A stretch of 64,000 bases of DNA from Deltaproteobacteria bacterium (lineage in GTDB: Bacteria > Desulfobacterota > Deferrimicrobia > Deferrimicrobiales > Deferrimicrobiaceae), in the NCBI GenBank assembly GCA_037439645.1, contig JBBIVQ010000005.1, positions 10,368 to 74,367 of the forward strand, read 5' to 3'. This document shows, in pieces, positions 33,876 to 63,304 of the stretch. The notes beneath the pieces are model-generated. The model saw only the letters and a program-made list of their open reading frames with translations. It made no database searches and had not been told where the DNA came from. A program made the position numbers and the translations under genes. Position 1 is the first letter of the stretch. Each line of letters begins with the position of its first letter.

Positions 33876-34346
33876 TTATATTTCCTTCCCGTGGCCGAAG
33901 AGGACCTTCAGGCGGCGGAGGAGTTCGTCGCGAACGGATCGGAACGCATCGAGGCGGGTTTCCTCCGTGCCGGTGATGGCCGCCGGGTCGGGAAGCGCCC
34001 AGTGGGCACGGTGCGCCTTCCCGAGGAATACGGGGCAGACCTCCTCGGCGCAGAGGGTGATCACGGCGTCGACGGACCCGGCGTCGATGGAATCCAGCCC
34101 TTTGGATCGGTGATCGGAGATATCGAAGCCGATCTCCTTGAGGACCCGGATCGCCTCCGGGCGGACGGAGGAGGGGGCAGACCCGGCGGAACTGATGTGT
34201 AAGCCTTCCGGAGCGAGAAAACGTGCGATCCCTTCGGCCATCTGACTGCGGGCTGAGTTCGCGACGCAAAGGAACAAAATGTGCCTCGGGCGCTTCGCCC
34301 GCAGGGCCTCCGCCTCGGCCCTCCACTCTTCCTGTCGAGCACTCAC
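33876..34346 (-). CDS. arsC: Arsenate reductase ArsC (LMW-PTP/thioredoxin-coupled type)
   Basis: HILFLCVANSARSQMAEG is the CX5R P-loop. GTG start at 34346 overlaps the arsR stop (GTGA). The long N-terminal extension of ORF 33876..34760 was rejected. Confidence 0.8.
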   Translation of the reverse strand: MSARQEEWRAEAEALRAKRPRHILFLCVANSARSQMAEGIARFLAPEGLHISSAGSAPSSVRPEAIRVLKEIGFDISDHRSKGLDSIDAGSVDAVITLCAEEVCPVFLGKAHRAHWALPDPAAITGTEETRLDAFRSVRDELLRRLKVLFGHGKEI

Positions 34347-34744
34347 CGCTTCGCCGCCCTGCGCTGCCTTCCGGTAAGGGTCATGTTCCTCTCGCAGATC
34401 CCGATGGGGCCGATCGACCTCGCCAGGACCGACCGTTCGCGGTCCTTGGCGATCACGGGATCGTCGTTCAGCCATCCCTGGAGATTTCGCAGCATCCGGC
34501 CCGCGAACGGAGAGTCGGTCCTGCGGTCCAGCGAATAGTAGACCCATTTCCGGTCCCGCCGGTCCTTGATGAGTCCCGCCCCCCGGAGGAGGAAGAGGTG
34601 CTTCGAAACGGTGGACTGTCCGAGGGAGAGGATCGCGATCACCTGGCATACGCACATCTCCCCGCCTTCGAGGATCTTGAGGATCCGTACACGGGTTGGA
34701 TCCGCGGCGGCCTTCAGCACGGTCTCGTAATCGCGCAGCCCCAT
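34343..34744 (-). CDS. arsR: ArsR/SmtB-family arsenite-responsive repressor
   Basis: LKAAADPTRVRILKIL...GEMCVCQVIAIL contains the metal-binding Cys pair in the HTH. Confidence 0.85.
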   Translation of the reverse strand: MGLRDYETVLKAAADPTRVRILKILEGGEMCVCQVIAILSLGQSTVSKHLFLLRGAGLIKDRRDRKWVYYSLDRRTDSPFAGRMLRNLQGWLNDDPVIAKDRERSVLARSIGPIGICERNMTLTGRQRRAAKR

Positions 34745-34763
34745 GTGTGCCTTCCACCATATC

Positions 34764-34781
34764 GTCAATTAACGAATTGAC
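34764..34781. promoter_or_regulatory. Perfect inverted repeat GTCAATT-AACG-AATTGAC upstream of arsR (candidate ArsR operator); a second palindrome CCCGGA-ATA-TCCGGG sits at 34829-34843 nearer arsD
   Basis: Both palindromes lie in the 120-bp divergent arsR/arsD intergenic region. Confidence 0.4.
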
Positions 34782-34866
34782 ATTCCGTACCCGTGAAGCG
34801 ATAATGCGACAGGTACATATTACACGTTCCCGGAATATCCGGGCAAGGAGGCGGATCTTGAGAAAG

Positions 34867-35157
34867 ATGGAAATCTACGAGCCGCCGCTGTGCTGTCCGA
34901 CCGGGGTGTGCGGCCCAGCGCCCGATCCCGCCCTGGCGAAGCTCCAGGAGGACATCCTCCGGTGGAAAAAGGTGGGAGTCGCGGTGGAGCGGCTCGCGAT
35001 CAACCAGGTGCCGCAGCGGTTCATGTCCAATCCGACGGTGGTCGACCTGCTGACCCGGGAGGGACAGGAGGTCCTTCCGGTCGCGCTGCTCGACGGGAAG
35101 GTTGTCTGCAAGGGGAAATACCCGACGTACGACCAGGTCACCCGGGAGGGTATGTAA
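34867..35157 (+). CDS. arsD: Arsenical resistance metallochaperone/repressor ArsD
   Basis: MEIYEPPLCCPTGVCGP matches the ArsD N-terminal Cys motif. An AAGGAGG Shine-Dalgarno lies upstream. Confidence 0.85.
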   Translation: MEIYEPPLCCPTGVCGPAPDPALAKLQEDILRWKKVGVAVERLAINQVPQRFMSNPTVVDLLTREGQEVLPVALLDGKVVCKGKYPTYDQVTREGM

Positions 35158-35222
35158 GTGCACCCTCTCGAAATAATATCGACGTTCCCGGTGCTTCAAT
35201 CGATTTGCGAGAGGGTACACTG

Positions 35223-35405
35223 ATGCCTACGTACGCCTACCTGTGCCGCGCCTGCGGCCGACCGTTCGAGATCAACATGTCCATTCGGGAGAAAGAAACG
35301 TGGAAACCCCGCTGCCCGGTGTGCGGCAGCGCGAAGGTCGAACAGCATCTGTTCGGATTCTCTTTCGGGGGGACCGGTGGCGGGCAACCCGCCCCCGGCG
35401 GGTGA
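35223..35405 (+). CDS. FmdB-family zinc-ribbon protein (60 aa) embedded between arsD and arsA
   Basis: MPTYAYLCRACGRPFEINMSI...PRCPVCGSAKVEQ has two CxxC pairs typical of FmdB. Confidence 0.6.
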   Translation: MPTYAYLCRACGRPFEINMSIREKETWKPRCPVCGSAKVEQHLFGFSFGGTGGGQPAPGG

Positions 35406-35488
35406 TGCCCCCCCGGCCGCGGCGGTCGCTGCGGGTGAGATGGGCAATACCGAAACGACGAATCCCGAAAAATGAGGGGTTGCCGACC

Positions 35489-37413
35489 ATGCACAAATAC
35501 ACGTTCTTTTCCGGCAAGGGGGGGGTGGGAAAGACCACCCTTGCGGCGGCCACGGCCTTGCGTACCGCGGCGTCGGGGAAGCGGACCCTGATCGTCTCCA
35601 CCGACCCGGCCAGCAACCTGGCCGACGTCTTCGAGCGCCCCATCGGGAACCGGGTCACGGAGATCGCTCCGAACCTGTTCGCGCTCGAGATCGATCCGGA
35701 TTCCGCCACGAAGGAGTATAGGGAGCGCGCGCTGGCGCCTTTGCGCGCCATCCTTCCGCCGGACGCCATGAAGGTTCTCGAGGAGCAGTTCCGGAGCGCC
35801 TGCACCGTCGAGATCGCCTCGTTCGACCGGTTCACCGATTTCCTCGGGGACACGGCGTTCGACCACGTCGTCTTCGACACCGCGCCCACGGGCCACACGC
35901 TTCGCCTGCTCGAGTTGCCGGTGGACTGGTCCCGCCACATAGAAGAAGCCGCGCGGGGGAACGGCCAGACGTGCATCGGCCCGGTCGCCTCCCTGCAGGG
36001 GGCCAAGGCGAAGTACGACCACGCCATCGCCGCGCTTCGGGATCCCGGGGAGACGGAGTTCACGCTGGTCTGCCGTCCGGAACGGACCTCCGTGGACGAG
36101 CTGCTCCGGGCCCGGGAAGAGCTCCGGACGCTCGGGATCGGAAATTTCCGCATCGTGCTGAACGGGGTGATCCCGGCCGGGGCGGGGGGGCCGTTCGCGA
36201 CCCTGTCCACGTCCCAGCGGGAGCAGGACCGCCGTCTTTCCGCGAAGCTCGACCGGCCCTGCATCGAGGTGCCCCTTCAGGGAGGGGAAGTGAAGGGGCT
36301 TTCCGCGATAGGGAGGTTCGCGGCGATCGCGTTCGACGGGAAGAGGGATTTTCTCCACGGCGGGTTCACGGGCACCCGTCCTTTCACGGGGTTCTCTACC
36401 CCGCACATCCTGAGGGAAATGGTGACCTCCGGCGATGGCCATGGACGGCCAAGTGCCGAGGCGGGCAGGGATGCCCCCGGTTCGGTGGTAGCCTCGGCCA
36501 GCCGGACGGTCGTCCTGACCGGCAAGGGAGGGGTCGGGAAAACCGTCACGGCGTGCGCGCTTGCGGCGCGTCTCGCGCGGGAGGGGAAACGGGTCCTCCT
36601 GGCGACCACCGACCCGGCGGCGCACATCGGGTCGGTCCTTTCGGCGGAGGTATCGAGCCGGGTTCGCCCCGTCCCGGGCTACTCCGGGCTCTTCGCCGTC
36701 CGGATCGACCAGAAGGAAAGCGTCGAAGCGTACAAGGCGAAGATCCTCTCCCAGGCGGCCGCGTCCGGCCACACCGGAGAGATGCTCGCCGTGGTCAAGG
36801 AGGAGCTGGAATCCCCCTGCACGGAGGAGATGGCGGTCTTCGAGGAGTTCTCGGGCCTGGTGGAGCGGGACGATTTCGACGCAGTGATCCTCGACACCGC
36901 CCCCACGGGGCACACGTTGCGCCTCCTCGAGCTGCCGTACGACTACGCCCGCCAGGTCGAGATGATGGTGGCCGTCCGGAAGGACGACGCCGGGGCGTCC
37001 GGCGCCAGGGGGAAGCTCGACGCGCTCGTCCGGCGCCTGAAGGATCCGGAGGCAACGACGTTTCTCCTCGTGATCTACCCGGAGTACACCCCGATCTTCG
37101 AGGCGAAACGGGCCGCGGAAGACCTGAAGGAATCCGGCATCGAGGTCCAGGGCGTCATCGCCAATTTCCTCCTCGACGAGGACGACTGCTCGTCTCCCTT
37201 CTCCCTGTCGCGGTACTTCATGCAGCAGCACTATCTCAAGGTGGCCGAGGAGACGTTCCGGCTGCCGATCTTCAAGGTGCCCATGCTGCCGTCGGAGCCC
37301 GCGGGCGCGGAGGCTCTGTGCACGGTGGGCAGGAAGTTGCTCGGTGAGCCGATGGCGAACATGATCTCCGTGATGGGGATGATGATGGGGGGCAGGGGCG
37401 GGGGCTGCTGCGG

Positions 37414-37417
<4 letters not shown>
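35489..37417 (+). CDS. arsA: Arsenite-translocating ATPase ArsA (two tandem ATPase halves) with a Cys-rich C-terminal tail
   Basis: Two P-loops (FFSGKGGVGKTT and LTGKGGVGKT), two DTAPTGHTLRLLELP signature motifs, and a C-terminal GGRGGGCCG. Confidence 0.93.
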
Positions 37418-38514
<1,097 letters not shown>

Positions 38515-42836: not shown

Positions 42837-42880
42837 CCGGTCGCCCCCCGGACGGGACCCTGTCCGACCCTTCTCCTGCG

Positions 42881-44547: not shown

Positions 44548-44567
44548 CGCGGGCTCCTCGGAGGAAC

Positions 44568-48736: not shown

Positions 48737-48738
48737 CG

Positions 48739-50274: not shown

Positions 50275-50299
50275 CCGCGTTCCCTCCTTTCCCGAAGCG

Positions 50300-53068: not shown

Positions 53069-53234
53069 GCGGCAATCCCCGGGTAATTAGGATATTAAGG
53101 TATGAATATCATGTGAGTGGAAAATGTCAAGAAAATCCGCCGCCCGTGAAGGGCGACCCTTTCCGGCGCCGTGAGAACCGGAGCATCGGACGAGGGGACG
53201 GGGCCAGCCCGTCCCCTCGTCCGTCGAAACAAGG

Positions 53235-56200
53235 TTATGCCTTGACCAGGTTCACCATCGTATCGTAGAAGGAAGCGCTTCCTCCGATCGGGTCGGTCAT
53301 GCACGTGTTCTTGAGGACCGGATCGATCTTCATCGCCGCGTTCGGGCACAGGCCGGCTGCGCGCCGCTTCTCGCCCTTGACCGTCCGCCCGTCCACGGTC
53401 GCATCGGACGCGCCGTACCCCCAGTGCCCGAACGACCAGGAGACGGCGACGACTCCCGGCGCCATTCCCTCGACCGCCTTGATCTTTCCGACCATGTCGA
53501 CCGGCTCGCGGTTCGGCAGGTGCCACTTCCCGTCCGCGTTCGACTTCGAGACGATCCGCGCCTTCTCCCCGTCCTTGAAGCCGAGATTCTTCGCCGTGCC
53601 GGCGTTGACGAGGAGGAAATTCTCGGGAAGGATCGCGCTCATCCAGTAGTTGTTCGGCAAGGTGCGGGACTGCCCTCCGAAGATCTCCTTGTAGGTGATG
53701 AGATGCAGCGGCATGTCCATGTCGACCGCCATGTTCCCCTTTGCGTCCTCGGGCTGCGTGAAGCAGCCGGTGCCGCGAAAACGTTTCCCCGTCAAGGAGT
53801 GTTTCGCCTTCGCCACATTCTCGCAGTAGAGGTTGAACTGTTTTCCGTACTTCTTCACGAGCTTCCCGTCGGGATTCGCGACCTCGGGGTTCCAGTCACC
53901 CCAGCGGCCCCCGCGGTTGAGGACGGTGACGGTCTTTTTCCACTTGTCGGGCCCGACCGCCTTCTCCCACCGCTTCTCGCTGAACACGGCGGCTTTGAGA
54001 TGCTTTCGCGCCTCGAGGAACGTTTTCATCTCGTCGAAGGAGGCGTCCGGCACCGCGTCGCCGTCCTTGTCCCCGACGGCCATGTTCGCGGCGAGCTTCA
54101 GGTACCAGTCCACCGGGGAGGTCAGATCCAACCCGGGGGTGAACCCGTCCTTGCCGAACCCCGGGAGCTGAAGTTTCTCGGCGAATGCCAGCGCCAGCGC
54201 CTCGAAAGAGCAGTGCATCTTCTCTCCGAACACCGTGACCGTTTCGGTCAGGGGGGTGATGGTGGGCTGGCGGAACTTGGACACCGCGTACGGGACGTCC
54301 GGGGAAGCGTGGGGCGTACCGAACCGCTCCCAGATGGCGGTGTCGGGGAACACATAGTCGGCATACATGCTGGTCTCGCCCAGTACGATGTCCGTCGCGA
54401 AGAACAGGGGGATCTTCTCCGTGTCGGCGAGGATCGAAAGGGCCGTCTGCCCCGCCGGCACCGCAAGGCCGGGGGTGCCCATGTGGAGCCAGACCGCCTG
54501 GGCCGCGTACGGGTATCCGTCGGCGGAGGAGGGCAACGCCTCCTGGTAAACGTTGCTGGTGAACGGGAGCCACGGCCGTTTCGCCGGGTATCCCTGGAAC
54601 AAGGTCGACTTCTCGTAGTGGGACCCCTCCCGCGTGATCTTGTGGCCGAAGGGGGACATCTTCCCCGGGTGCAGCTTGTTCACGTCGAACTGGGCTTTCG
54701 ACTTGTCTCCGAATTCGTGCCAGTGCCCACCGCCGACGGACAGGCCTCCTTTGTGGTCCGCGTTACCGATCAGGATGTTCAGGGCGATGAGGGCCTGGGC
54801 GTTGTAGTAGCCGTTGGTGTGCTGGACCGGCCCGCGGTAGAATTCGACCCCCGCCTTCTTGCCGTGGGAGGTCAACTCCTTCGCGACGGTTTCGATGTCC
54901 GCCACCGGGATGCCGCAGATCTTCGACCACTCCGTCATCGTCTTCGAGAACGCCTCTTCCTTGAGGATGGTGAAGGCGGTCTTTACGGGCACCCCGTTGA
55001 CCTCCCCGCTGAAGTCGAGGGTTCCGGTCACCGCGTTCTTGTCGTCGTCCGCCTTCACGGCGGCCGGCGCGCCCCCGGCCATGACGACGAAGTGGTCCTT
55101 GTCGCCGGTCCCGATGTCGGAGGCCCGAAGCAGGGCGCCGGGGCCGTCCTTCTCGATCTTCACCAGGTGGGTCGAATTCGACCACGTGGTCTCCCCCGCC
55201 GCCTTGGCCGCGGCCTTGTTGGCGGCGGCAAGGTATTTTTCGTCATGCCGCTTGTTCTCGATGATCCAGCGGATCATGGCCAGGGCGAGGGCGGCGTCGG
55301 TCGAAGGCTTGACCGGCAGCCACTTCCATGCGCGCGAGGCGGACTTGCTCATCCGCGGGTCGACCACCGCGACCTTCAGACGGCCGGACGAGATCCCTTC
55401 GGTGACCTTCGGGCACATGGCCGGGGGGCCGAAGTTCGCCTCCACGAACCCCGTGCCGAAATAGACGATGAACTCGGCGTTGAACGAATCGGGCTTCATG
55501 TGGGTGATGCCGCCCGCCCATTTCCCGTCCGCGTACTGCTTGGTTGCTTCATTGTAGGCGATGTGGTGCGACTGTTCGCAGATCGTGGTGTGCTCGATGA
55601 TGTTCGCGGAGCCGAAACCGCCGTTCATGAACCGCTTGCCGAACTCGATCCGGCCGTGCTCGATCCGGCCCCACATCCCGACGAACCGGTTGTTCTTCGG
55701 GCCGAGGTCGGGATGATCCGGGTCGATCAGCCGGTCGAGGTTCGTGGCGTGCTTCGCCTTGAACTCCGCGACTTTCATCTTTCCTTCCGCGACCGCCTTC
55801 GCGTCCTTCCCCATCTCGGCCGAGAGCTTCGCGTCGGTCAGCGCGCGCAACTCCTTGAGCCCCGGGACGTGCCGGGATTCCCCGATCCCCGCGAACAGGG
55901 TCCCGCCGCTGACGATCTCGCTGACGGCCTTGTCGAAGGAGATGACCTCCCATCGGTTGGAGCCGCGGGGCCCATTTCGCTTCAGGACCTTTACGATCCG
56001 GTACGGGTCGTAAAGCGACTGGATCCCGGACTGCCCCTTGGGGCACACCAGGGCGTCGATCTTCGCCGCCTTCCCCAGGGCCGTTCCGTACGGCAGGTTC
56101 GGGATCAGGTTCTCGCTGTACGGGTTGCCGTCGATCTTGACCGCGACGCCGTCCAGGATCTTCACCTTGATCGGGCAGGCGGTGTGGCACTGGAGGCAGA

Positions 56201-56426
56201 CGGAGTAGATCACACTCGTCGCCTTCGACAGCGGGTAGCTCCCCGAGCGTTCCCCGGCCGCCTCGGCGGTTCCCAGAAGGTGGAACGCGTTTTCCATCCG
56301 GCTCATCAGAAGGGCGGAGCCGCCGAGGAACGCCCCGGATTTCAGCAGGGTCCGGCGGGACACGCTCGCCAGGGGCCATCGATCGACGGTTTCCTTCAGC
56401 TTGCAAGGTTTCTCGTTGGAAGACAT
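53235..56426 (-). CDS. Tat-exported molybdopterin oxidoreductase catalytic subunit, tetrathionate-reductase (TtrA)-like / PsrA-like
   Basis: Tat motif SRRTLLKSGAFLGGSAL, N-terminal Fe-S motif CLQCHTACP, TtrA-like blocks LALAMIRWIIENKRHDEKYLA and LAFAEKLQLPGFGKD, 1063 aa. A GGAGGAGG Shine-Dalgarno precedes the ATG. Confidence 0.85.
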   Translation of the reverse strand: MSSNEKPCKLKETVDRWPLASVSRRTLLKSGAFLGGSALLMSRMENAFHLLGTAEAAGERSGSYPLSKATSVIYSVCLQCHTACPIKVKILDGVAVKIDGNPYSENLIPNLPYGTALGKAAKIDALVCPKGQSGIQSLYDPYRIVKVLKRNGPRGSNRWEVISFDKAVSEIVSGGTLFAGIGESRHVPGLKELRALTDAKLSAEMGKDAKAVAEGKMKVAEFKAKHATNLDRLIDPDHPDLGPKNNRFVGMWGRIEHGRIEFGKRFMNGGFGSANIIEHTTICEQSHHIAYNEATKQYADGKWAGGITHMKPDSFNAEFIVYFGTGFVEANFGPPAMCPKVTEGISSGRLKVAVVDPRMSKSASRAWKWLPVKPSTDAALALAMIRWIIENKRHDEKYLAAANKAAAKAAGETTWSNSTHLVKIEKDGPGALLRASDIGTGDKDHFVVMAGGAPAAVKADDDKNAVTGTLDFSGEVNGVPVKTAFTILKEEAFSKTMTEWSKICGIPVADIETVAKELTSHGKKAGVEFYRGPVQHTNGYYNAQALIALNILIGNADHKGGLSVGGGHWHEFGDKSKAQFDVNKLHPGKMSPFGHKITREGSHYEKSTLFQGYPAKRPWLPFTSNVYQEALPSSADGYPYAAQAVWLHMGTPGLAVPAGQTALSILADTEKIPLFFATDIVLGETSMYADYVFPDTAIWERFGTPHASPDVPYAVSKFRQPTITPLTETVTVFGEKMHCSFEALALAFAEKLQLPGFGKDGFTPGLDLTSPVDWYLKLAANMAVGDKDGDAVPDASFDEMKTFLEARKHLKAAVFSEKRWEKAVGPDKWKKTVTVLNRGGRWGDWNPEVANPDGKLVKKYGKQFNLYCENVAKAKHSLTGKRFRGTGCFTQPEDAKGNMAVDMDMPLHLITYKEIFGGQSRTLPNNYWMSAILPENFLLVNAGTAKNLGFKDGEKARIVSKSNADGKWHLPNREPVDMVGKIKAVEGMAPGVVAVSWSFGHWGYGASDATVDGRTVKGEKRRAAGLCPNAAMKIDPVLKNTCMTDPIGGSASFYDTMVNLVKA

Positions 56427-56441
56427 TCGTTTACCTCCTCC

Positions 56442-57200
56442 TCACACGTGGCATTCGAGGCACGTAACCGGCGTGCCGACCTGGATCTTCGAGCGCTCTT
56501 CGTAGCCGATGTAGTAGACCCGCGGCTTCGTGCCGAGCTTTGAAAGGTTCTGCCAGACCGTCTCTTTCTTCAGGATCTCGGAAACGAGGCTCTTCGGATC
56601 CGAGGCGTCCCCGAAGTACATCGCCCTGCCGATGCAGGTGGAAACGCAGGCGGGAATCATGCCGCTTTCGAGTCGATGCGGGCAGAAGGTGCATTTCCGG
56701 ATGGCGCCGTTCAGGGCGTTCTTCTCCCGTGTGAACTTCCCGCCGTACTCGTAGAAATCCCGTGTTTCGTACGGTTCAAGCACGGGCGTTCCGTCGGTGT
56801 TATGGCCGCCGTGGTCCTCGATGATCGCGTAATAGGGGCACGACTTCTTCGCCGCTTCGGCCGCCTTCGGATTTTTTGCAAGCACCTTGTAGTCGAACTC
56901 GACGATGCCGTCCTCCCGCTTTACGATGGCGTTCCTGGACACCTTGTTCGCCGCTTTCATGCACGGGGCATTGTCGCACTGCTGGCAGTTCGCGGGCATG
57001 AAGAACCGGTCCAGATCGGGGAACTCCCTGTGCTCCGTTTCGAACACCTTCCGGTAGGAGCTGCCGGGTGGAGTGACGTTTTCGGCCATGCAGGACACGG
57101 CACAGGCATGGCACCCCACGCATTTTCGAACGTCGATGACCATCTTCCAGGATCGTTCCTTCTTCGGGCGGCCGAGCGCCCTCTCGAGATCTTCGTGCAT
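56442..57200 (-). CDS. 4Fe-4S ferredoxin-type electron-transfer subunit (TtrB/PsrB/DmsB-like)
   Basis: KMVIDVRKCVGCHACAVSC, CQQCDNAPCMKA and CTFCPHRLESGMIPACVSTC. The start is uncertain; 57143 is an alternative. Confidence 0.75.
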   Translation of the reverse strand: MHEDLERALGRPKKERSWKMVIDVRKCVGCHACAVSCMAENVTPPGSSYRKVFETEHREFPDLDRFFMPANCQQCDNAPCMKAANKVSRNAIVKREDGIVEFDYKVLAKNPKAAEAAKKSCPYYAIIEDHGGHNTDGTPVLEPYETRDFYEYGGKFTREKNALNGAIRKCTFCPHRLESGMIPACVSTCIGRAMYFGDASDPKSLVSEILKKETVWQNLSKLGTKPRVYYIGYEERSKIQVGTPVTCLECHV

Positions 57201-57341
57201 CCGAACGATTTCACCTGTTGCCACGGCGGAACCCTCCTTCCGCGAACGGGATGTTTCGAATCTGAATCCGTTACAAGGTCCGGAGCGCATCGATGAGGCC
57301 CAGCACCGGAAAGGAATGTCGAGAACAGTCGAATATTCGTA

Positions 57342-57357
57342 CGCAATTTCCGAGCCA
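57342..57357 (-). promoter_or_regulatory. Sigma-54 (-24/-12) promoter TGGCTCG-GAAA-TTGCG directing transcription toward the TtrB/TtrA-like genes
   Basis: The reverse complement of 57342-57357 matches the TGGCACG-N4-TTGCW consensus at 14 of 15 key positions. It sits about 140 nt upstream of the ttrB-like start, and an NtrC-family activator gene is adjacent. Confidence 0.55.
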
Positions 57358-57399
57358 TTTATAATTTATTGATAATGTTGGCGTTTTCCGGGAGGGAGC

Positions 57400-57504
57400 G
57401 TTACCTCAAGGTAACACTTCGTGACGTTCTCAAGCGCAACGATTCGATAGGAAACGGGAAATGGCCGTTACCACGAGGTGGAGCCGATGTTACTTTATCG
57501 TAAC
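57400..57504. promoter_or_regulatory. Putative enhancer (UAS) sites: two GTTAC-N6-GTAAC palindromes (57400-57415, 57489-57504) plus a half-site between them
   Basis: The two palindromes share the same architecture, are about 89 bp apart, and lie 45-160 bp upstream of the sigma-54 promoter and just downstream of the activator gene. Confidence 0.4.
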
Positions 57505-57538
57505 GTGAAGGGAATGACGTGTTTCCTGCCGCCGATGG

Positions 57539-58876
57539 TCACCGGATTCCGTATGTGTTCATCTTCTCCCATAAGGTTTTCCGGCTGATCCCGAGCAGCT
57601 CCGCGGCCTTGCTTTTCACTCCTCCGGTGGCCTTCAGTATGCCGAGGATGTGGTTCTTCTCCGCGTCGGCGGCGATCCGCGACAGCAGGAGGATCTCTTC
57701 CTTCTCCCGTCCCCCCGTGATCTTGGCCGGCAGGTCCTCCGGGCCGATCAACTCCGTCGAGGCCAACGTGACGCACCGCTCGATCAGGTTTTCGAGTTCC
57801 CGGACGTTTCCGGGGTAGTCGTACCGGAGCAGCATCTCCACCGCCGCCGGAGACAGCCGGACGCTCCTTGAAAATTTTCTGCCGTACCTCTCCAGGAAGA
57901 ACTCGATGAGGCCGGGGATATCCTCCTTGCGCTCTCTCAACGGGGGAATGACGATCGGTACAACGTTGAGCCTGTAGAACAGGTCTTCCCTGAACCGGCC
58001 GTCCGCCACGCACTCTTCCAGGTTCCTGTTCGTGGCCGCGACGACCCGCACATCGACCGTCAGCGTTGCGGTTCCGCCGATCCGCTCGAACTGCCTCTCC
58101 TGGAGGACCCTGAGGATCTTCGCTTGCGTCGCGAGCCGCAGATCCCCGATCTCGTCCAGGAAAATGGTGCCTCCGTCCGCGAGTTCGAATCGCCCCGGTT
58201 TCCTTCGGATCGCCCCGGTGAACGCCCCCTTCTCGTGTCCGAAAAGCTCGCTTTCGATCAGCCCTTCCGGCAGCGTCGAGCAGTTCACTTTGATCAGCGG
58301 TTTGTCCTTCCGGGTGCTTCGATAGTGAACGGTGGTCGCGACGAGTTCCTTGCCGGTTCCGGTTTCCCCCAGGAGGAGCACCGTGGAGGTCGACGCCGAA
58401 ACCTTCGCGGCGAGGGAAAGAACCCTCTTCATCGGTGCGCTCTCGCCGATGATGGCGGGCGCCCGACGGCACGCGTCGAGGTCCTTTTGCAGGCGAAGGT
58501 TTTCCTCCTCCAGTCGCTTCATTTCCATCGCACGTTCCACGATCATCAGGAATTCGTCCAGGGCGAACGGCTTGGTGATGTAATCGAAGGCGCCCAGCTT
58601 CATCGCCTCCACGGCATCCTTGATGGTGCCGTAGGCGGTCATGACGATGACCTTCGGGGTTTCCAGTTTCGCGATTTCCCTGACGATGTCGAACCCGTCG
58701 GCGTCGGGAAGCCGCACGTCGGTCACGGCGACATCGAACGATGCGGTCCGGATGGCCTGCACCCCGCCGGCGCCGGTTTCGAACGGCATGACCTCGTACC
58801 CCGCGCCCTTGAGCGCGTCTTCCATGGTCACCCGCATGATCTTCTCGTCCTCGATGAGAAGGACCGTCCCTTTCAT
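57539..58876 (-). CDS. Sigma-54-dependent response regulator (NtrC/Fis family: REC, AAA+ sigma-54 activator, C-terminal HTH)
   Basis: Receiver domain (LLIEDE...VTDVRLPD), P-loop GETGTGKE, GAFTGA motif, and C-terminal ELLGISRKTLWEKM. ATG at 58876 overlaps the histidine kinase stop. Confidence 0.9.
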   Translation of the reverse strand: MKGTVLLIEDEKIMRVTMEDALKGAGYEVMPFETGAGGVQAIRTASFDVAVTDVRLPDADGFDIVREIAKLETPKVIVMTAYGTIKDAVEAMKLGAFDYITKPFALDEFLMIVERAMEMKRLEEENLRLQKDLDACRRAPAIIGESAPMKRVLSLAAKVSASTSTVLLLGETGTGKELVATTVHYRSTRKDKPLIKVNCSTLPEGLIESELFGHEKGAFTGAIRRKPGRFELADGGTIFLDEIGDLRLATQAKILRVLQERQFERIGGTATLTVDVRVVAATNRNLEECVADGRFREDLFYRLNVVPIVIPPLRERKEDIPGLIEFFLERYGRKFSRSVRLSPAAVEMLLRYDYPGNVRELENLIERCVTLASTELIGPEDLPAKITGGREKEEILLLSRIAADAEKNHILGILKATGGVKSKAAELLGISRKTLWEKMNTYGIR

Positions 58877-60366
58877 TGCGCCCGCTCCACGGGAAACCGC
58901 ATGATGAAGCGGCTTCCCATTCCCGCCTTGCTGTCGACGGAGATCTCGCCATCGTAGTTCCGGACGATTTCGTAGGTCAACCAGAGGCCCAGCCCCGTCC
59001 CCTCTCCGGGCGGCTTCGTGGTGAAAAACGGGTCGAAGATCCGTTTGACGTCCTCGGGGGCGATCCCGCACCCGGTATCCGAGACCTCGACGACGACCGC
59101 GGCGTCGCGTGCGGCGGCGCTCACGGTCAGGACGCCGCCCGGTTCCATGGCGTCGATGGCGTTGATGTAAAGGTTCAGCAGCATCTGCTGCAGATCATGC
59201 ATGTCCATGCGGATGCGAAGGTCCCCGGGTACTTCGTCGGCGAACGAGATGCGCCGCTTCCCGAACCGGTAATTCAGGAAGAGATGGACCTTCTCCGCCG
59301 CCTCGCGCAGATTCAGGTCCGCGGGCAGGTGATCGGCCTTCCGCGCCATCCAGAGGAGCTTGCTAACGGTGGATTCGATCCGGTCCATCCCCTCCTTGAC
59401 GAGGCCGAGGTATTTATTCCGCAAGGCCGGATCATCGCTGTCCTGCTGCAGCATCCGGAGGCAGTTGAAGATCCCTCCCAGGGGGTTGTTGATTTCGTGG
59501 GCGACCCCCGCGGCGAGAACCCCGATGGAGGCGAGCTTTTCCGACTGGACCATCTTCTCGTGGGTCTTCCTGATCTCCTCCTTCGCCTGGCGGATCCGGT
59601 CGATCATGCCGTTGAACCGCTCCGCGAGGACCGCAAGCTCGTCGCTTCCCCGTACGGGGACTTTCAGGTCGAGGGAGTCCCCGTGCGCCTTTTCCATCGT
59701 GTTCGCCAACTGGGTGATCGGACCGATAAACCTCCTGCTCAGGAGAAGGACGATCGCGAACCCGGCAACGAGCAGGACGAGCGTCAGCAGGACGATCTTT
59801 TCCACGGTGGCGAAGATCCGGTGATCGGCTTTTTCAAGTGAGATTCCGAACTTCAAGGTCCCCCATCGTTTCTTCCCGGTGGAAAGGGGGACGCCGACAT
59901 CCAGCGCGTCATGTTCTCCCCGCGAATAACGCTGCACGACCGTCCGATCGCCCTTCAGCACCTTCCGCGTCAAGGAGTCCGAGTAGGTTTTCCCGTATTC
60001 GGTGATGTCGTTGTGGGAGACGACCCGCCCGTTTTCGTCCAGGATCGCCATGTAGAGCAGGTCCAGGTCCTGCCGCGAAAAGATCTCCAGGATATAGTTG
60101 TCGAGCAGGCCGCCTTCCTCCACCAGCCCGAGTTTCTCGTAGATCAGGTCGTTGATGATCGGGATGGCGAGGGTCTCCCCGAGCAGGCGCCCCTGCTTCT
60201 CCACCTCCTCGTACAACAGGCTTTTTTCCCGATGGACCGCCAGGTAACCGAGGATGCTCATCCCGGCGACGATGGCGCACATCGTGATGACGATGAACCT
60301 GACCTGGAGGCCCTTCCGGATCGACAATCGCGGGGGACGATCTACCATTGGATCTTCGGGTGGCAT
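58873..60366 (-). CDS. Sensor histidine kinase (periplasmic sensing domain, HAMP, HisKA, HATPase_c)
   Basis: Two TM helices flank a roughly 150-aa periplasmic segment. H-box GVAHEINNPLGGI, and G-boxes DTGCGI and GTGLGL. Confidence 0.85.
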   Translation of the reverse strand: MPPEDPMVDRPPRLSIRKGLQVRFIVITMCAIVAGMSILGYLAVHREKSLLYEEVEKQGRLLGETLAIPIINDLIYEKLGLVEEGGLLDNYILEIFSRQDLDLLYMAILDENGRVVSHNDITEYGKTYSDSLTRKVLKGDRTVVQRYSRGEHDALDVGVPLSTGKKRWGTLKFGISLEKADHRIFATVEKIVLLTLVLLVAGFAIVLLLSRRFIGPITQLANTMEKAHGDSLDLKVPVRGSDELAVLAERFNGMIDRIRQAKEEIRKTHEKMVQSEKLASIGVLAAGVAHEINNPLGGIFNCLRMLQQDSDDPALRNKYLGLVKEGMDRIESTVSKLLWMARKADHLPADLNLREAAEKVHLFLNYRFGKRRISFADEVPGDLRIRMDMHDLQQMLLNLYINAIDAMEPGGVLTVSAAARDAAVVVEVSDTGCGIAPEDVKRIFDPFFTTKPPGEGTGLGLWLTYEIVRNYDGEISVDSKAGMGSRFIMRFPVERAQ

Positions 60367-62072
60367 CCTTTTCCGCAGGATTGCGGAACGGCGTTGAACA
60401 TCGTGCGGATGCCCGCGTAGTCCCCGTCCGACGCCTCGGTGAACCCTTGCCGGAGATCCTCGTCGAGGCGGCCCAGGATCGTTTTCCCCCGATCATCCGA
60501 AGGAGTGAGCGCGAGGAGGGCCTTGCGGATGTTTTCCATGACAAGGTACGGAATTCCCGGGCCGGCCACCAGCGGTCCGGTGGGGATGTCCCTGGACTCT
60601 GCCACCGTTTCGATGCCGAGCTTCGCGTATTTCCTGGCCACGGAGTCCTGGACCGCCCCCGCGTCGTACTGTCCTTTCAGGACGGCCTTGACCACCGAAT
60701 CGTGGTAATCGAAATTGGCGTACCCCTTCAAGTCGTTCAAGTGAATCCCCGAGGTCGCCAGGAGATACCGGGGGATCAGGTTGCCGGATGTCGACTTGGA
60801 GGCGGCGAAGGCGATCGTCTTCCCCTTGAGGTCGGAAAGAGGCTTTCGCGGATTGCCCGCTTTCCGGATGACCACGCTCTTGTACCGCGACGTGCCATCC
60901 GCTCCCCTGGGCTTCAGGATGCAGAGGACCCCGTACCGCGCATGGGCCTCCAGGTAGGTCAGCGGTCCCAGCAGGGCGATGTCGGTTTCCCCGGTCGCCA
61001 GGGCCGTCACCGTCTCCTCGTAGTTCTTCTTCAGCACGAGTTCGTAGGCGTAGGGGGTTTTCACGGAGAGGTAATCGAGAAGCGGCTGGTACTTCTCGTA
61101 CAGGATCCTCGGATTGTCTCTCGGGATGACGCCGACGTACACGGTGTTCCGGTCCCTCGTGGCCCGGGGTGCCGCCGAAGCGCGCGCGACCGCGCGTTCC
61201 ATCTTGCGGATGCCGTCGTAGTTGGCGTCCGGGACGTCGACGAACCCGTCGATCATCATGGCCTGGAGGATCGCCTTTCCCTTCAGCGAGTCCGAAATGG
61301 ACAGGAAGGCTTCCTTGACCTTCCGGCGGAGCTCGGGATCGATATCCCGGACCACGACCACGGGGGGTATCCCGAAAGGAGGGGAGCGCTTGACGATCTT
61401 CGTCTGGCGCGTGTACGGCGAGCCGGACTTCCGCATGTATTCGTAGACGAGGCTTTCCACCGCCGCTCCGTCCACGATCTTCTTCGCGACCATCTCGATG
61501 GACTTGTTGTGACTGTAGCTGTAAAGCACTCTCCCGAAGAACCGCTCCGGGTCGAGCCCCATCGTCTTCAGCAGGTAGGCGGGATAGATCTTGCCGGTGT
61601 TGGACTTCGGGTCCGTGAACGCGAAGCTCTTCCCCTTCAGGTCGGCGAACGTCCTCACGGAGCTGTCGTTGTGCGCGATGATGTAGGACCGATACGTGGG
61701 ACTTCCGCCCACCTTCGGTGCGACCAGGATTTCCACGCCGAACTTCTCCCGGTTCTTCACGTAGGGGGCGGAGCAGATGAACGCGATCTTGACCTCGCCG
61801 CGTTCGAGTAGCTCGTCCATCTCCTCGTACGTCCGGCGTTGGACCATCTGAACGGGGCGGTGGATCCGTTCACCGATGTAGGCGATGATCTCCTGGTAAT
61901 ACTTGACGGTGTCCACGGGCGTGACCATGGACGCCACGCCGATCCGGATCGGATCCTGCCGCGACCAGGACGGAAGGGGGGCGAGAAGCAGGGCGACGGC
62001 GACGAGTGCAGCCGTCACGGCGACCCTTCCCGGCGGCTGGGGAATACAGGCTGTCCCGGGCGATCTTCCCAT
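60342..62072 (-). CDS. Periplasmic solute-binding protein with two tandem PhnD/SsuA-like domains (likely co-sensor for the adjacent kinase)
   Basis: A signal peptide is followed by two repeats of roughly 270 aa, each with ...FAFTDPKSNTG.../...IAFAASKSTSGNL... motifs. Its stop overlaps the histidine kinase start. Confidence 0.75.
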   Translation of the reverse strand: MGRSPGTACIPQPPGRVAVTAALVAVALLLAPLPSWSRQDPIRIGVASMVTPVDTVKYYQEIIAYIGERIHRPVQMVQRRTYEEMDELLERGEVKIAFICSAPYVKNREKFGVEILVAPKVGGSPTYRSYIIAHNDSSVRTFADLKGKSFAFTDPKSNTGKIYPAYLLKTMGLDPERFFGRVLYSYSHNKSIEMVAKKIVDGAAVESLVYEYMRKSGSPYTRQTKIVKRSPPFGIPPVVVVRDIDPELRRKVKEAFLSISDSLKGKAILQAMMIDGFVDVPDANYDGIRKMERAVARASAAPRATRDRNTVYVGVIPRDNPRILYEKYQPLLDYLSVKTPYAYELVLKKNYEETVTALATGETDIALLGPLTYLEAHARYGVLCILKPRGADGTSRYKSVVIRKAGNPRKPLSDLKGKTIAFAASKSTSGNLIPRYLLATSGIHLNDLKGYANFDYHDSVVKAVLKGQYDAGAVQDSVARKYAKLGIETVAESRDIPTGPLVAGPGIPYLVMENIRKALLALTPSDDRGKTILGRLDEDLRQGFTEASDGDYAGIRTMFNAVPQSCGKGCHPKIQW

Positions 62073-63206: not shown

Positions 63207-63304
63207 TTTTTTCCCGATAATCGACCGGTTCTTGCGTCCGATCAATGCGCGGCCGGGCCGGGATATATATTCTGATACAGGAATACGATGCCAAGGAGGA
63301 CGCC

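What the first reader, a model, noticed from the sequence alone, without database searches (positions are those of the whole stretch)
53235..62072. Sigma-54/two-component controlled TtrB/TtrA-like molybdoenzyme pair without a membrane anchor
A Tat-exported TtrA-like catalytic subunit and a TtrB-like ferredoxin subunit lie downstream of a near-consensus sigma-54 promoter (TGGCTCG-N4-TTGCG at 57342-57357). Two GTTAC-N6-GTAAC palindromes lie 45-160 bp further upstream. The adjacent NtrC-family regulator, histidine kinase and tandem-PhnD-like periplasmic binding protein form a plausible signal chain: ligand to binding protein to kinase to regulator to sigma-54 promoter. No NrfD/TtrC-type quinol-oxidising membrane subunit is encoded next to the pair. 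The enzyme may therefore take electrons from the neighbouring bc complex and cytochrome c cluster instead. The substrate is unknown (tetrathionate, polysulfide, thiosulfate or arsenate-like oxyanions are all candidates).
Basis: partly seen in the sequence, partly recalled or inferred. Interest (0 to 1): 0.55.

Follow-up and report, generated by a model that had tools for sequence, protein, structure and literature searches.

The report
Arsenic-sensing operon for anchorless Ttr-like molybdoenzyme
This is an arsenic-responsive operon for a soluble periplasmic molybdenum enzyme, most likely a non-Arr arsenate reductase, whose iron-sulfur subunit has swapped its last cluster and membrane anchor for a C-terminal haem-type CxxCH tail.

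Summary

The substrate can now be narrowed to arsenic.
- The binding protein's first domain is closest to ArrX, AioX and ArxX and keeps their pocket, including the diagnostic Cys.
- The palindromes fit the published AioR site GTT-N10-AAC and recur in seven related loci.
- The catalytic subunit has the Gly-Arg motif of arsenic enzymes, which true TtrA lacks.
- ars genes lie 15 kb away in the window and next to at least 14 related loci.

The enzyme scores far below the TtrA cut-off. It resembles the published "Ttr-like arsenate reductases".

One new point emerged. In 78 related loci, NrfD absence coincides exactly (39 of 39 against 0 of 39) with an iron-sulfur subunit that has lost the four Cys of the distal cluster and gained an invariant C-terminal CxxCH. 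I read this as a haem c tail replacing cluster FS4 and the quinol anchor.

Reaction direction and haem attachment are both untested.

The parts
60342..62072 (-). Periplasmic sensor binding protein with two PhnD-fold domains. Domain 1 is of the AioX/ArrX/ArxX type. Domain 2 is PhnD-like.
   Evidence: - Pfam finds Phosphonate-bd twice.
- Domain 1 scores against solved structures: ArrX 169 bits, AioX 135-140, PtxB 88, PhnD 59.
- Domain 1 is 34% identical to Sulfuricella ArxX and 29% to NT-26 AioX.
- The pocket reads Y-C-Y-S-N-T-H-E against AioX Y-C-Y-S-N-S-H-D.
- Domain 2 has Gly where domain 1 has the Cys.
- A signal-peptide-like hydrophobic stretch covers residues 17-37.
58873..60366 (-). Sensor histidine kinase of the AioS/ArxS type.
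   Evidence: - Domains: sCache_3_2, HAMP, HisKA, HATPase_c.
- Two hydrophobic helices at residues 24-40 and 191-210 flank the periplasmic domain.
- 30% identical to ArxS over 452 aa.
57539..58876 (-). Sigma-54-dependent response regulator of the AioR/ArxR type.
   Evidence: - Domains: Response_reg, Sigma54_activat, AAA_lid_14, HTH_8.
- 39% identical to Sulfuricella ArxR and 38% to NT-26 AioR over the full length.
57489..57504 (.). Distal activator-binding palindrome, GTTACGATAAAGTAAC on the minus strand.
   Evidence: - It is an exact GTTAC-N6-GTAAC.
- It fits the AioR consensus GTT-N10-AAC and 15 of 16 positions of the extended AioR motif in PMC5335332.
- It is conserved in 7 related loci.
57400..57415 (.). 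Proximal activator-binding palindrome, GTTACCTTGAGGTAAC on the minus strand.
   Evidence: It lies 43 bp upstream of the -24 element.
57342..57357 (-). Sigma-54 -24/-12 promoter, TGGCTCGGAAATTGCG.
   Evidence: - One search shows the sequence.
- Equivalent elements occur in L001, L003, L010, L012, L038, L052, L053, L057 and L058.
56442..57224 (-). Three-cluster FeS subunit, 260 aa, with no signal peptide of its own.
   Evidence: - Fer4_11 domain; NCBIfam hits to TtrB and ArrB.
- It has 14 Cys.
- The group II fourth Cys and group III Cys 1-3 are replaced by Ala, Leu, Ala and Ala.
- The AlphaFold2 model has mean pLDDT 88.6, and its best structural match is ArrB 6cz7_B.
56448..56462 (-). Codons for the C-terminal C255-L-E-C258-H259 motif (CxxCH) of the FeS subunit, one residue before the stop.
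   Evidence: - The motif is present in 39 of 39 NrfD-less loci and 0 of 39 NrfD-containing loci.
- It is present in 119 of the 120 best homologues.
53235..56426 (-). Tat-exported molybdopterin catalytic subunit of a Ttr-like clade linked to arsenic.
   Evidence: - NCBIfam: TtrA 446 bits against a cut-off of 1750, PhsA 164, ArrA 118.
- G253-R254, H279, T280 and C283 align with ArrA G164-R165, H189, S190 and C193.
- The signature GRIEHGR...EHTTICEQSHHIA is invariant in the family.
53139..53157 (-). Terminator-like hairpin followed by a T-rich tail, after the Mo gene.
   Evidence: This is a consensus match only.
33897..38514 (.). ars resistance cluster in the same window: ArsC (LMWP type) and ArsR on the minus strand, ArsD, ArsA and Acr3 on the plus strand.
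   Evidence: tblastn and Pfam.

Best explanation
The locus is a self-contained arsenic module.

Sensing and transcription:
- A periplasmic binding protein of the AioX/ArrX/ArxX family senses an arsenic oxyanion. Its second, PhnD-like domain may add a second oxyanion input.
- It signals to the two-helix sCache/HAMP kinase, which phosphorylates an AioR/ArxR-like sigma-54 activator.
- The activator binds the two GTTAC-N6-GTAAC sites and opens the sigma-54 promoter of a two-gene operon.

Enzyme:
- The products are exported together by Tat. The FeS subunit hitch-hikes on the Mo subunit's signal peptide.
- They form a soluble periplasmic heterodimer of the Ttr-like, non-Arr clade.
- This heterodimer most likely reduces arsenate to arsenite at a Cys-ligated Mo-bisPGD site.

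Electron entry:
- In place of a quinol-oxidising NrfD subunit, electrons enter through the FeS subunit.
- That subunit has lost the distal cluster FS4 and carries a C-terminal CxxCH.
- I infer a covalently bound haem c there, possibly with His259 and Met76 as axial ligands, sitting beside FS3.
- The enzyme would then be fed by periplasmic or membrane-bound c-type cytochromes, as CymA feeds the anchorless ArrAB of Shewanella.

Shown by sequence and comparison: the gene content, regulatory sites, pocket and active-site motifs, ars linkage, and the anti-correlation between NrfD and CxxCH.

Inferred: the identity of the ligand, the direction of the reaction, haem attachment, and the electron donor.
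For: Sensor:
- Best solved relatives are ArrX (169 bits) and AioX (135-140 bits), well above PtxB and PhnD.
- The AioX pocket residues Tyr88, Cys106, Tyr131, Ser161, Ser163, His192 and Asp210 (PMC5908839) read Y, C, Y, S, T, H, E in the window protein.
- They read Y-C-Y-S-x-S/T-H-D/E in most of the binding proteins found beside related loci. The rest are the PhnD-like second type, with Gly in place of the Cys. TtrS does not share the pocket.

Regulator sites:
- The palindromes match the AioR consensus GTT-N10-AAC (PMC5335332).
- The NT-26 aioB promoter shows the same layout of site plus TGGCACAACGATTGCA.
- The sites are conserved in 7 loci against a background of 0.004 per 510 bp.

Enzyme:
- The Gly-Arg motif aligned to ArrA R165 is invariant in the family and in the ars-linked enzyme of Citrobacter arsenatis.
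- It is absent from true TtrA. PMC12949373 reports the same distinction.

Context:
- ars genes lie in the window.
- They also lie next to the homologue in Deferrisoma camini and in at least 14 of about 90 loci, some directly adjacent.
- Melioribacter roseus has the same arrangement of ars genes, ArrTSR and ttr, and its ttrA transcript rose on arsenate, though not to statistical significance (PMC5492636).
- Other Ttr-like enzymes are tied to As(V) respiration in Anaeromyxobacter PSR-1, Pyrobaculum, Limisphaera and paddy soils.

Electron entry:
- The dichotomy is perfect at 39/39 against 0/39, and 119 of 120 homologues carry the tail.
- Exactly the four FS4 ligands are lost, and a Met is invariant only in the anchorless group, 37 of 37.
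- No compensating changes appear in the Mo subunit.
Against: - No experiment exists on this clade. I could not obtain the PSR-1, OR-1, M. roseus, Pyrobaculum or SrdA sequences, so membership of the published As(V)-reductase clades is inferred rather than shown.
- AioXSR and ArxXSR, the sigma-54 versions of this system, control arsenite oxidases. ArrR of Chrysiogenes is not a sigma-54 activator. The regulation therefore does not fix the direction.
- ArrA residues Tyr166 and Lys198 are Ile and His here.
- Longer relatives of the FeS subunit carry their own twin-arginine signals. The protein is exported folded, and haem c attachment to a Tat substrate is, to my knowledge, unusual.
- The tail is short and modelled with only moderate confidence, pLDDT 62-72.
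- Ttr homologues without TtrC have also been discussed in sulfur disproportionators, with sulfite as a suggested substrate.
Confidence: 0.5

Rival explanations
1. Same module, opposite direction. The enzyme is an anaerobic arsenite oxidase, working like Arx. It passes electrons through the CxxCH tail to c-type cytochromes. In this organism those would be the neighbouring hexahaem cytochrome, the Rieske/cytochrome b complex and the periplasmic type II DMSO-reductase-family enzyme.
For: - The sigma-54 activator and GTT-N10-AAC sites are the hallmark of the arsenite-oxidase regulators AioR and ArxR.
- The binding protein is as close to ArxX (169 bits by BLAST) as to ArrX (169 bits by phmmer).
- A cytochrome-c-type exit suits an oxidase. 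AioBA in NT-26 is followed by a cytochrome c gene.
- A bc complex with an NAD(P)H-type flavoprotein and a terminal reductase lies directly downstream.
Against: - All published physiology for Ttr-like arsenic enzymes concerns As(V) reduction.
- The signalling loop of domain 1 aligns without gaps to the short polar ArrX loop, not to the longer hydrophobic AioX loop.
- The relatives come from anaerobic reducers such as Deferrisoma, Desulfuromusa, Geothrix and Thermodesulfovibrionales.
- The bc/DMSOR neighbourhood is not conserved.
Confidence: 0.2
2. A sulfur-oxyanion enzyme acting on tetrathionate, thiosulfate or sulfite, as the TtrA-like annotation and the first reader's list suggest.
For: - TtrA is the best NCBIfam hit.
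- Ttr homologues with or without TtrC are abundant in the proteomes of sulfur disproportionators.
- In a 98% identical contig (L011), TauE and TusA genes lie a few kb beyond the sensor genes, outside the window.
Against: - The score of 446 bits is far below the TtrA cut-off of 1750.
- There is no TtrC and no TtrSR. The TtrS model scores 28 bits, and the TtrS pocket is not shared.
- The Gly-Arg motif absent from true Ttr is present here.
- AioX, ArxX and ArrX did not bind tetrathionate, thiosulfate or sulfate in ITC (PMC5908839).
- ars genes are strongly enriched around the family.
Confidence: 0.1
3. The CxxCH tail does not carry haem. It binds another metal or cluster, or is structural. Electrons reach the exposed FS3 directly from a soluble partner, possibly the neighbouring bc complex and cytochrome.
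For: - The protein is a Tat passenger or Tat substrate.
- The tail has at most 8-10 residues after the His and modest model confidence.
- Soluble three-cluster beta subunits without haem are known, for example the periplasmic W/Mo formate dehydrogenases of Desulfovibrio and pyrogallol transhydroxylase. Both appear among the structural matches.
Against: - Two Cys and one His cannot rebuild a [4Fe-4S] cluster.
- No Cys, His or Met in the Mo subunit co-varies with the tail.
- The spacer before the motif varies freely while C-x-x-C-H is invariant. A Met next to the FS3 ligands is invariant only in tail-bearing proteins.
- The host makes multihaem cytochromes c.
- The bc cluster is not conserved next to other anchorless loci.
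Confidence: 0.35
4. A reductase for another metalloid oxyanion such as selenate (SrdA-like), selenite, antimonate or tellurate.
For: - The TtrA/SrdA/archaeal-Arr lineage contains a selenate reductase (PMC7331816).
- The cytochrome b and c genes nearby hit the ExtP, ExtQ and ExtS models of a selenite/tellurite reduction operon.
- Antimony and arsenic chemistry overlap.
Against: - AioX and ArxX bound only arsenite. ArrX bound only arsenate and, weakly, phosphate, among the oxyanions tested, which included antimonite and selenate.
- The neighbouring resistance genes are ars genes.
- The Ext-like genes belong to the separate downstream array.
Confidence: 0.07

Closest known systems
Ttr-like (non-Arr) respiratory arsenate reductases: Anaeromyxobacter sp. 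PSR-1 TtrA homologue, Melioribacter roseus Mros1074-1076 with 'ArrTSR' and ars genes, Pyrobaculum aerophilum PAE1265, Limisphaera
   Same: - The catalytic subunit falls in the TtrA/SrdA/archaeal-Arr lineage.
- It has the Gly-Arg motif.
- Neighbours are a PhnD-like binding protein, a kinase, a regulator and ars genes.
- Loci L078 and L084 reproduce the M. roseus order ArsR, Acr3, binding protein, regulator, B, C, A.
   Different: - M. roseus and many relatives have the NrfD subunit (BCA). The window has only B and A, with a three-cluster B ending in CxxCH.
- Sequence relationship to the published proteins could not be measured here.
Tetrathionate reductase TtrBCA with TtrSR (Salmonella; Citrobacter freundii plasmid copy L016)
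   Same: - B-before-A gene order, Tat export and a Cys-ligated Mo site.
- Overall length and architecture of the A subunit.
   Different: - 28.5% identity, and 446 bits against a 1750-bit cut-off.
- No TtrC.
- Gly-Arg is present.
- The active-site segment is EHTTICEQSHH, against AHGAYCGLAYR in TtrA.
- The sensor is a separate AioX-type protein with a sigma-54 activator, not TtrS with a NarL-type TtrR.
ArrAB of Shewanella sp. ANA-3 and ArrXSR of Chrysiogenes arsenatis
   Same: - A soluble periplasmic AB heterodimer without an anchor. From my own knowledge of the field, it is fed by a membrane cytochrome, CymA.
- ArrB is the best structural match of the FeS model.
- ArrX is the best solved match of the sensor.
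- ArrA residues R165, H189 and C193 have equivalents here.
   Different: - ArrA is only distantly related, at 89-118 bits.
- ArrB keeps its third Cys group and has no CxxCH tail.
- ArrR is not a sigma-54 activator.
AioXSR / ArxXSR three-component control of arsenite oxidases (Rhizobium NT-26, Agrobacterium GW4, Alkalilimnicola, Sulfuricella)
   Same: - A binding protein, a kinase and a sigma-54 activator.
- GTT-N10-AAC-type sites upstream of a -24/-12 promoter.
- The same pocket residues.
   Different: - The controlled enzyme is neither AioBA nor ArxAB.
- The binding protein here is a tandem of two domains.
- The ligand, As(III) or As(V), is unknown.
Soluble periplasmic DMSOR-family enzymes wired to cytochromes c: Desulfovibrio FdhAB (three-cluster beta subunit) and SerABC/PcrAB
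   Same: - No quinol-oxidising subunit.
- Electron exchange with the periplasmic cytochrome pool.
- The FdhB small subunit has three clusters. The cluster count and partners are from my own knowledge of the field.
   Different: - Those enzymes use separate cytochrome subunits or partners.
- Here a CxxCH motif is fused to the end of the FeS subunit itself.

Membership tests
Bona fide tetrathionate reductase TtrABC/TtrSR | The catalytic subunit reaches the curated TtrA equivalog score. | tested here: not met
   446.6 bits against a cut-off of 1750. 28.5% identity to an annotated TtrA.
Bona fide tetrathionate reductase TtrABC/TtrSR | ttrBCA operon with the NrfD-type TtrC between B and A. | tested here: not met
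   A 15-bp gap separates B and A. There is no NrfD-like ORF in the 64 kb.
Bona fide tetrathionate reductase TtrABC/TtrSR | TtrS (kinase with fused binding domain) and a NarL-type TtrR. | tested here: not met
   The TtrS model scores 28 bits. The pocket is not shared. The regulator is a sigma-54 activator.
Bona fide tetrathionate reductase TtrABC/TtrSR | Substrate-site pattern without the Gly-Arg of arsenic enzymes (PMC12949373). | tested here: not met
   G253-R254 are present and invariant in the family. They are absent in C. freundii and Pseudomonas TtrA.
Ttr-like (non-Arr) arsenate reductases | Catalytic subunit in the TtrA/SrdA/archaeal-Arr lineage, outside true Ttr and true Arr. | tested here: met
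   - TtrA is the best family but falls below its cut-off. ArrA scores 118 bits and PhsA 164.
- A neighbour-joining tree separates the family from true TtrA (no support values).
Ttr-like (non-Arr) arsenate reductases | Gly-Arg motif at the position of ArrA R165, and a Cys Mo ligand. | tested here: met
Ttr-like (non-Arr) arsenate reductases | Genomic linkage to ars genes and to an ArrX/AioX-type sensor system. | tested here: met
Ttr-like (non-Arr) arsenate reductases | Clusters with the experimentally implicated proteins: PSR-1 WP_059435911.1, OR-1 WP_041969781.1, Mros1076, PAE1265. | not tested
   - The sequences were not obtainable.
- They did not appear among the 120 best hits of two searches. 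Any relationship to the window protein is therefore below about 56% identity.
- The key paper is not held.
Ttr-like (non-Arr) arsenate reductases | Arsenate reductase activity, or induction by arsenic. | not testable with these tools
   Needs enzyme assays or transcriptomics.
AioXSR/ArxXSR/ArrXSR arsenic-sensing systems | Binding protein of the AioX subfamily with the pocket Tyr, Cys, Tyr, Ser, Ser, His, Asp. | tested here: met
   Five of seven residues are identical, with Ser to Thr and Asp to Glu in the other two. The Cys that PhnD lacks is present.
AioXSR/ArxXSR/ArrXSR arsenic-sensing systems | Adjacent membrane kinase and, in the Aio/Arx type, an AtoC-family sigma-54 activator. | tested here: met
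AioXSR/ArxXSR/ArrXSR arsenic-sensing systems | RpoN promoter and GTT-N10-AAC activator site upstream of the structural genes. | tested here: met
AioXSR/ArxXSR/ArrXSR arsenic-sensing systems | Binding of arsenite or arsenate by the binding protein. | not testable with these tools
   Needs ITC or a similar method.
Four-cluster FeS subunit of complex iron-sulfur molybdoenzymes (TtrB/PsrB/ArrB type) | Sixteen Cys in four groups, ligating four clusters. | tested here: not met
   - There are 14 Cys. The group II fourth Cys and group III Cys 1-3 are missing.
- Assigning these four Cys to the distal cluster FS4 follows the established NarH/DmsB scheme, which I take from my own knowledge of the field.
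c-type cytochromes | CxxCH motif on a protein located outside the cytoplasm. | tested here: met
   C255-x-x-C258-H259. The protein is a periplasmic Tat passenger.
c-type cytochromes | Export in the unfolded state (Sec) and covalent haem attachment. | tested here: inconclusive
   There is no Sec signal, and relatives carry Tat signals. Attachment after export to a flexible tail is conceivable but untested.

The most novel reading that the evidence does not exclude
The invariant C-terminal CxxCH carries a covalently bound haem c on a Tat-exported, three-cluster FeS subunit. The haem would take the place of the distal cluster FS4 and the NrfD quinol site. This would define a previously undescribed way of wiring a DMSO-reductase-family enzyme, here an arsenic oxidoreductase, to the periplasmic cytochrome c pool. 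It would also be an unusual case of haem c maturation on a Tat substrate.
Probability: 0.4. Interest if true: 0.78.

Novelty: new variant of a known kind. Interest (0 to 1): 0.62.

Why it matters
Environmental relevance:
- Ttr-like genes, not arrA, dominated the transcripts of respiratory arsenate reductase genes in flooded paddy soils (PMC11462812).
- The enzymes behind them control arsenic release into water and rice.
- This locus supplies practical sequence markers for the arsenic-linked clade against true tetrathionate reductases: the Gly-Arg and EHTxICExSHH signatures, the AioX-type sensor and the AioR-type sites.

Two wiring forms:
- The family comes in a quinol-coupled BCA form and a soluble BA form with a CxxCH tail.
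- The two should differ in energy yield and in electron donors. That bears on how arsenic respiration is modelled.

Biochemistry:
- If the tail carries haem, it is a compact natural example of a cluster being replaced by a haem.
- It would also be haem attachment to a protein that is exported folded.

Tried and rejected
1. Linking the family directly to the published PSR-1, OR-1 and M. roseus proteins.
   - Two homologue searches and one cluster look-up returned only uncultured relatives plus Deferrisoma camini and Desulfuromusa kysingii.
   - Muramatsu et al. 2020 and the paddy-soil supplement are not held.
   - I looked for Rieske, cytochrome b, cytochrome c or GltD-like genes near 35 other anchorless loci and found none conserved.
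   - Apart from the two subunits themselves, the only recurrent real neighbours were FmdE-like and molybdenum-cofactor genes.
3. Residues in the Mo subunit that co-vary with loss of the anchor, as a possible second haem ligand or cluster ligand. None were found.
4. Measuring the distance from the tail to FS3 in the AlphaFold2 model. Coordinates are not exposed to scripts.
5. A TtrS-like sensor. Rejected.
6. A sigma-70 promoter for the operon. None was found.
7. Using the regulators to decide between As(III) and As(V). ArrX and ArxX score equally, and the regulator is about equally distant from AioR and ArxR.
8. Prior description of the CxxCH tail. Two full-text searches found nothing relevant. 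The library is incomplete, so this is weak evidence of novelty.
9. The genome-collection scan with a single protein gave only 8 loci. The metagenome scan with an alignment gave the 80 loci used for the statistics.

Full report
**What is there**

The window has high G+C, and codon-position G+C gives clear gene calls. On the minus strand, in transcription order, lie:
- a binding protein with two Phosphonate-bd domains, 60342-62072;
- an sCache/HAMP histidine kinase with two hydrophobic helices, 58873-60366;
- a sigma-54 response regulator, 57539-58876;
- a 314-bp intergenic region;
- an FeS subunit, 56442-57224;
- a 1063-aa Tat-signal molybdopterin subunit, 53235-56426, starting 15 bp after the FeS stop.

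These calls rest. The FeS gene most likely starts at the GTG behind GGAAGGAGGG. That agrees with a 260-aa database protein identical over the full query length.

A contig from another assembly is 98% identical at the protein level and has the same gene order.

TGGCTCGGAAATTGCG lies at 57357-57342. The bare pattern is not significant in 64 kb, with 2 found against 1.27 expected.

The two GTTAC-N6-GTAAC palindromes, at 57400-57415 and 57489-57504, are the only exact copies in the window. The expectation is 0.29 even with one mismatch allowed.

Comparison settles both. Two or three such palindromes, followed by a -24/-12 element 60-250 bp downstream, precede the FeS gene in L001, L003, L010 (Deferrisoma camini), L038, L052, L053 and L057. 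The background in the same loci is 0.004 per 510 bp.

No NrfD-type gene lies between the FeS and Mo genes or anywhere in the window. A terminator-like hairpin follows the Mo gene.

**The sensor points to arsenic**

Domain 1 of the binding protein matches the solved arsenate sensor ArrX (169 bits) and the arsenite sensor AioX (135-140 bits). That is far better than phosphite or phosphonate binders.

Badilla et al. (PMC5908839) define the AioX pocket as Tyr88, Cys106, Tyr131, Ser161, Ser163, His192 and Asp210. It is conserved in AioX, ArxX and ArrX, and the Cys is absent from PhnD. The window protein reads Y, C, Y, S, T, H, E.

Most of the binding proteins I found next to related loci read Y-C-Y-S-x-S/T-H-D/E. 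The rest are the second type described below. The periplasmic part of true TtrS shares none of this.

Those authors also report that AioX and ArxX bind only arsenite. ArrX binds arsenate and, weakly, phosphate. None of the three bound tetrathionate, thiosulfate, sulfate or selenate.

Domain 2 is PhnD-like, with Gly in place of the Cys and Gln or Arg in place of the Asp. The same tandem occurs in L038, L052, L053 and L057. Deferrisoma and L001 have only this second type. Its ligand is open.

**The regulator sites fit AioR**

The documented AioR consensus is GTT-N10-AAC. [quoted passage not shown] Both window palindromes fit the short form, and the distal one fits 15 of 16 positions of the long form.

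In the NT-26 aioB promoter, which I fetched, GTTCGAGAATGCGAAC lies about 50 bp upstream of TGGCACAACGATTGCA. The window regulator is 38-39% identical to AioR and ArxR over its full length.

**The enzyme is not a tetrathionate reductase**

It scores 446 bits on the TtrA equivalog model, whose cut-off is 1750. It is 28.5% identical to an annotated TtrA.

Aligned to ArrA of Shewanella ANA-3, residues G253-R254, H279, T280 and C283 correspond to G164-R165, H189, S190 and the Mo ligand C193. ArrA Y166 and K198 are Ile and His here.

A 2026 study of Shewanella Ttr (PMC12949373) reports that this Gly-Arg is present in Arr, Arx and Ttr-like arsenate reductases and absent from true Ttr. My alignment reproduces that:
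- The whole family reads xGRIEHGR...EHTxICEQSHHIA.
- A Ttr-like enzyme beside arsRDABC on a Citrobacter arsenatis plasmid reads SGRIVKTR...EHTNICELSHHIA.
- C. freundii and Pseudomonas TtrA lack the motif.

**Genomic context**

The window itself carries ArsC, ArsR, ArsD, ArsA and Acr3 at 33.9-38.5 kb.

In Deferrisoma camini the homologue, at 60% identity, follows ArsC, Acr3, ArsD, ArsA and ArsM-like genes and the same sensor triad.

About 90 family loci came from genomes and metagenomes. At least 14 of them have specific ars genes within the available flanks, several directly adjacent. The three true-Ttr-type reference loci have none.

The arrangement matches that described for Melioribacter roseus: ars genes, 'ArrTSR', then ttrBCA. 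Its ttrA transcript rose on arsenate, though only the psr/phsA induction reached significance (PMC5492636 and PMC3534657).

Ttr-like enzymes are also implicated in As(V) respiration in Anaeromyxobacter PSR-1, Pyrobaculum and Limisphaera. ttrA transcripts exceeded arrA transcripts in paddy soils.

I could not obtain those sequences. Membership of the same clade is therefore inferred from shared features.

**The missing anchor and what replaces it**

The family exists in two forms. In 39 non-redundant loci an NrfD gene sits between the FeS and Mo genes. In 39 others the two genes abut.

The FeS subunits differ in exactly one respect.
- Anchored forms have 16 Cys and end near ...GTxPxVYYL.
- Anchorless forms typically have 14 Cys. 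They have lost the fourth Cys of group II and the first three Cys of group III.
- Anchorless forms have also gained an extension of about 20 residues. Its sequence varies freely except for an invariant C-x-x-C-H within 0-10 residues of the end.

The correspondence is 39 of 39 against 0 of 39. Of the 120 best database homologues of the window FeS subunit, 119 end this way, down to 47% identity. Among representatives clustered at 50% identity, the tail is confined to the closest relatives, apart from one weaker hit that I did not examine.

By the established NarH/DmsB scheme, which I take from my own knowledge of the field, the four lost Cys ligate FS4. That is the cluster next to the quinol-binding membrane subunit.

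A Met four residues before the first FS3 ligand (FFMPANC) is invariant in tail-bearing proteins, 37 of 37, and is T, L or I in anchored ones. Nothing in the Mo subunit co-varies.

The Deferrisoma type is intermediate. It has the tail and no NrfD but keeps some FS4 Cys, and it branches with the anchored FeS subunits in a neighbour-joining tree.

The simplest reading is that a haem c, with His259 and perhaps Met76 as axial ligands, has taken the place of FS4 and NrfD. Electrons would then come from c-type cytochromes rather than directly from quinol.

The main objection concerns export. These proteins are Tat passengers, or carry their own twin-arginine signals. Haem would therefore have to be attached to the flexible tail after export of the folded protein.

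The AlphaFold2 model is confident overall, with mean pLDDT 88.6 and ArrB and PsrB as best structural matches. The tail is modelled less well, at pLDDT 62-72.

I found no description of this tail in two full-text searches. Loss of TtrC in some 'TtrAB' clusters has been noted before (PMC9751629).

**The neighbouring bc complex**

Downstream of the hairpin lies a tight array:
- an Rrf2 regulator;
- a GltD-like FAD/FeS protein;
- a Rieske protein;
- cytochrome b;
- a six-CxxCH cytochrome c;
- the alpha, beta, gamma and delta genes of a Tat-exported type II DMSO-reductase-family enzyme.

These calls rest. The array has higher G+C than the sensor and enzyme module. It accompanies the pair only in this lineage.

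It may well exchange electrons with the enzyme in this organism. There is no comparative support for a dedicated link.

**Direction of the reaction**

This remains open. The sigma-54 version of the sensor system is known from arsenite oxidases, and a cytochrome c exit would suit an oxidase. Against that, the sensor loop is ArrX-like, the published physiology of Ttr-like enzymes is reductive, and the hosts are mostly anaerobic reducers.

I put arsenate reduction at roughly 55% and arsenite oxidation at roughly 20%, with the remainder for other substrates.

**Verdict**

The locus is a new variant of a known kind. It is an AioXSR/ArxXSR-type, sigma-54-controlled operon for a Ttr-like arsenic oxidoreductase. 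It is in the soluble form, whose FeS subunit has traded the distal cluster and the membrane anchor for a CxxCH tail.

Noticed in passing
window 42204-47327 (-): A complete type II DMSO-reductase-family enzyme of unknown substrate. It could act on nitrate, chlorate, perchlorate, selenate or something else.
- The Tat-signal alpha subunit scores 1146 bits on TIGR03479, above the cut-off.
- The beta, haem-b gamma and chaperone delta subunits hit the matching type II models, but below their cut-offs.
   Followed up: partly
window 47327-52644 (-): A Rieske/cytochrome b complex is encoded together with a GltD-like NAD(P)H-type FAD/FeS protein and a membrane-anchored cytochrome c with six CxxCH motifs.
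- The cytochrome b and c genes hit the ExtP, ExtQ and ExtS models of a selenite/tellurite reduction operon.
- The combination recalls the Rieske/b complexes with NAD(P) oxidoreductase subunits of anammox bacteria. That comparison is from memory and was not tested.
   Followed up: partly
window 33897-38514: An ars resistance cluster: ArsC (LMWP type), ArsR, ArsD, ArsA and Acr3. Nearby lie AbiEii, DUF4143 and SNF2-helicase genes and a lower-G+C stretch (24-34 kb, 0.57-0.61). This suggests an acquired island.
   Followed up: partly
window 63245-63628 (+); also directly downstream of the Mo gene in 9 related loci: An FmdE-family gene is a recurrent neighbour of anchorless family members. It may be a maturation factor.
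   Followed up: no
window 62265-63206 (+): A Crp/Fnr-type regulator (cNMP_binding plus HTH_Crp_2) carries an extra N-terminal LexA-like winged-helix domain. It is transcribed divergently from the sensor genes.
   Followed up: no
window 57362-57374 (-): TATCAATAAATTA, immediately upstream of the -24 element, fits the IHF consensus WATCAANNNNTTR. L001 has AATCAATAAGTTA at the same place. I matched these by eye and made no statistical test.
   Followed up: no
L001, L002, L038, L041 (FeS subunits): In several anchorless relatives the second Cys of the first cluster motif is Asp (CVGDHAC, against CVGCHAC in the window). This suggests an Asp-ligated proximal cluster.
   Followed up: no
L010 (Deferrisoma camini), L052: These are intermediate FeS subunits. 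They have the CxxCH tail and no NrfD, but part of the FS4 Cys set is retained (15-18 Cys). They group with anchored subunits in the FeS tree. They may represent a transitional state or a second origin.
   Followed up: partly
L015 (Citrobacter arsenatis plasmid NZ_CP037863) and about 60 E. coli plasmids: A more distant Ttr-like BCA cluster (33.6% identity) sits divergently next to arsRDABC on conjugative enterobacterial plasmids. It shares the GR...EHTNICELSHHIA signature.
   Followed up: partly
window 16911-18089 (+) and 9771-9785 (-): A second kinase/regulator pair and the only other TGGC-N7-TTGC match in the window. I did not examine either.
   Followed up: no
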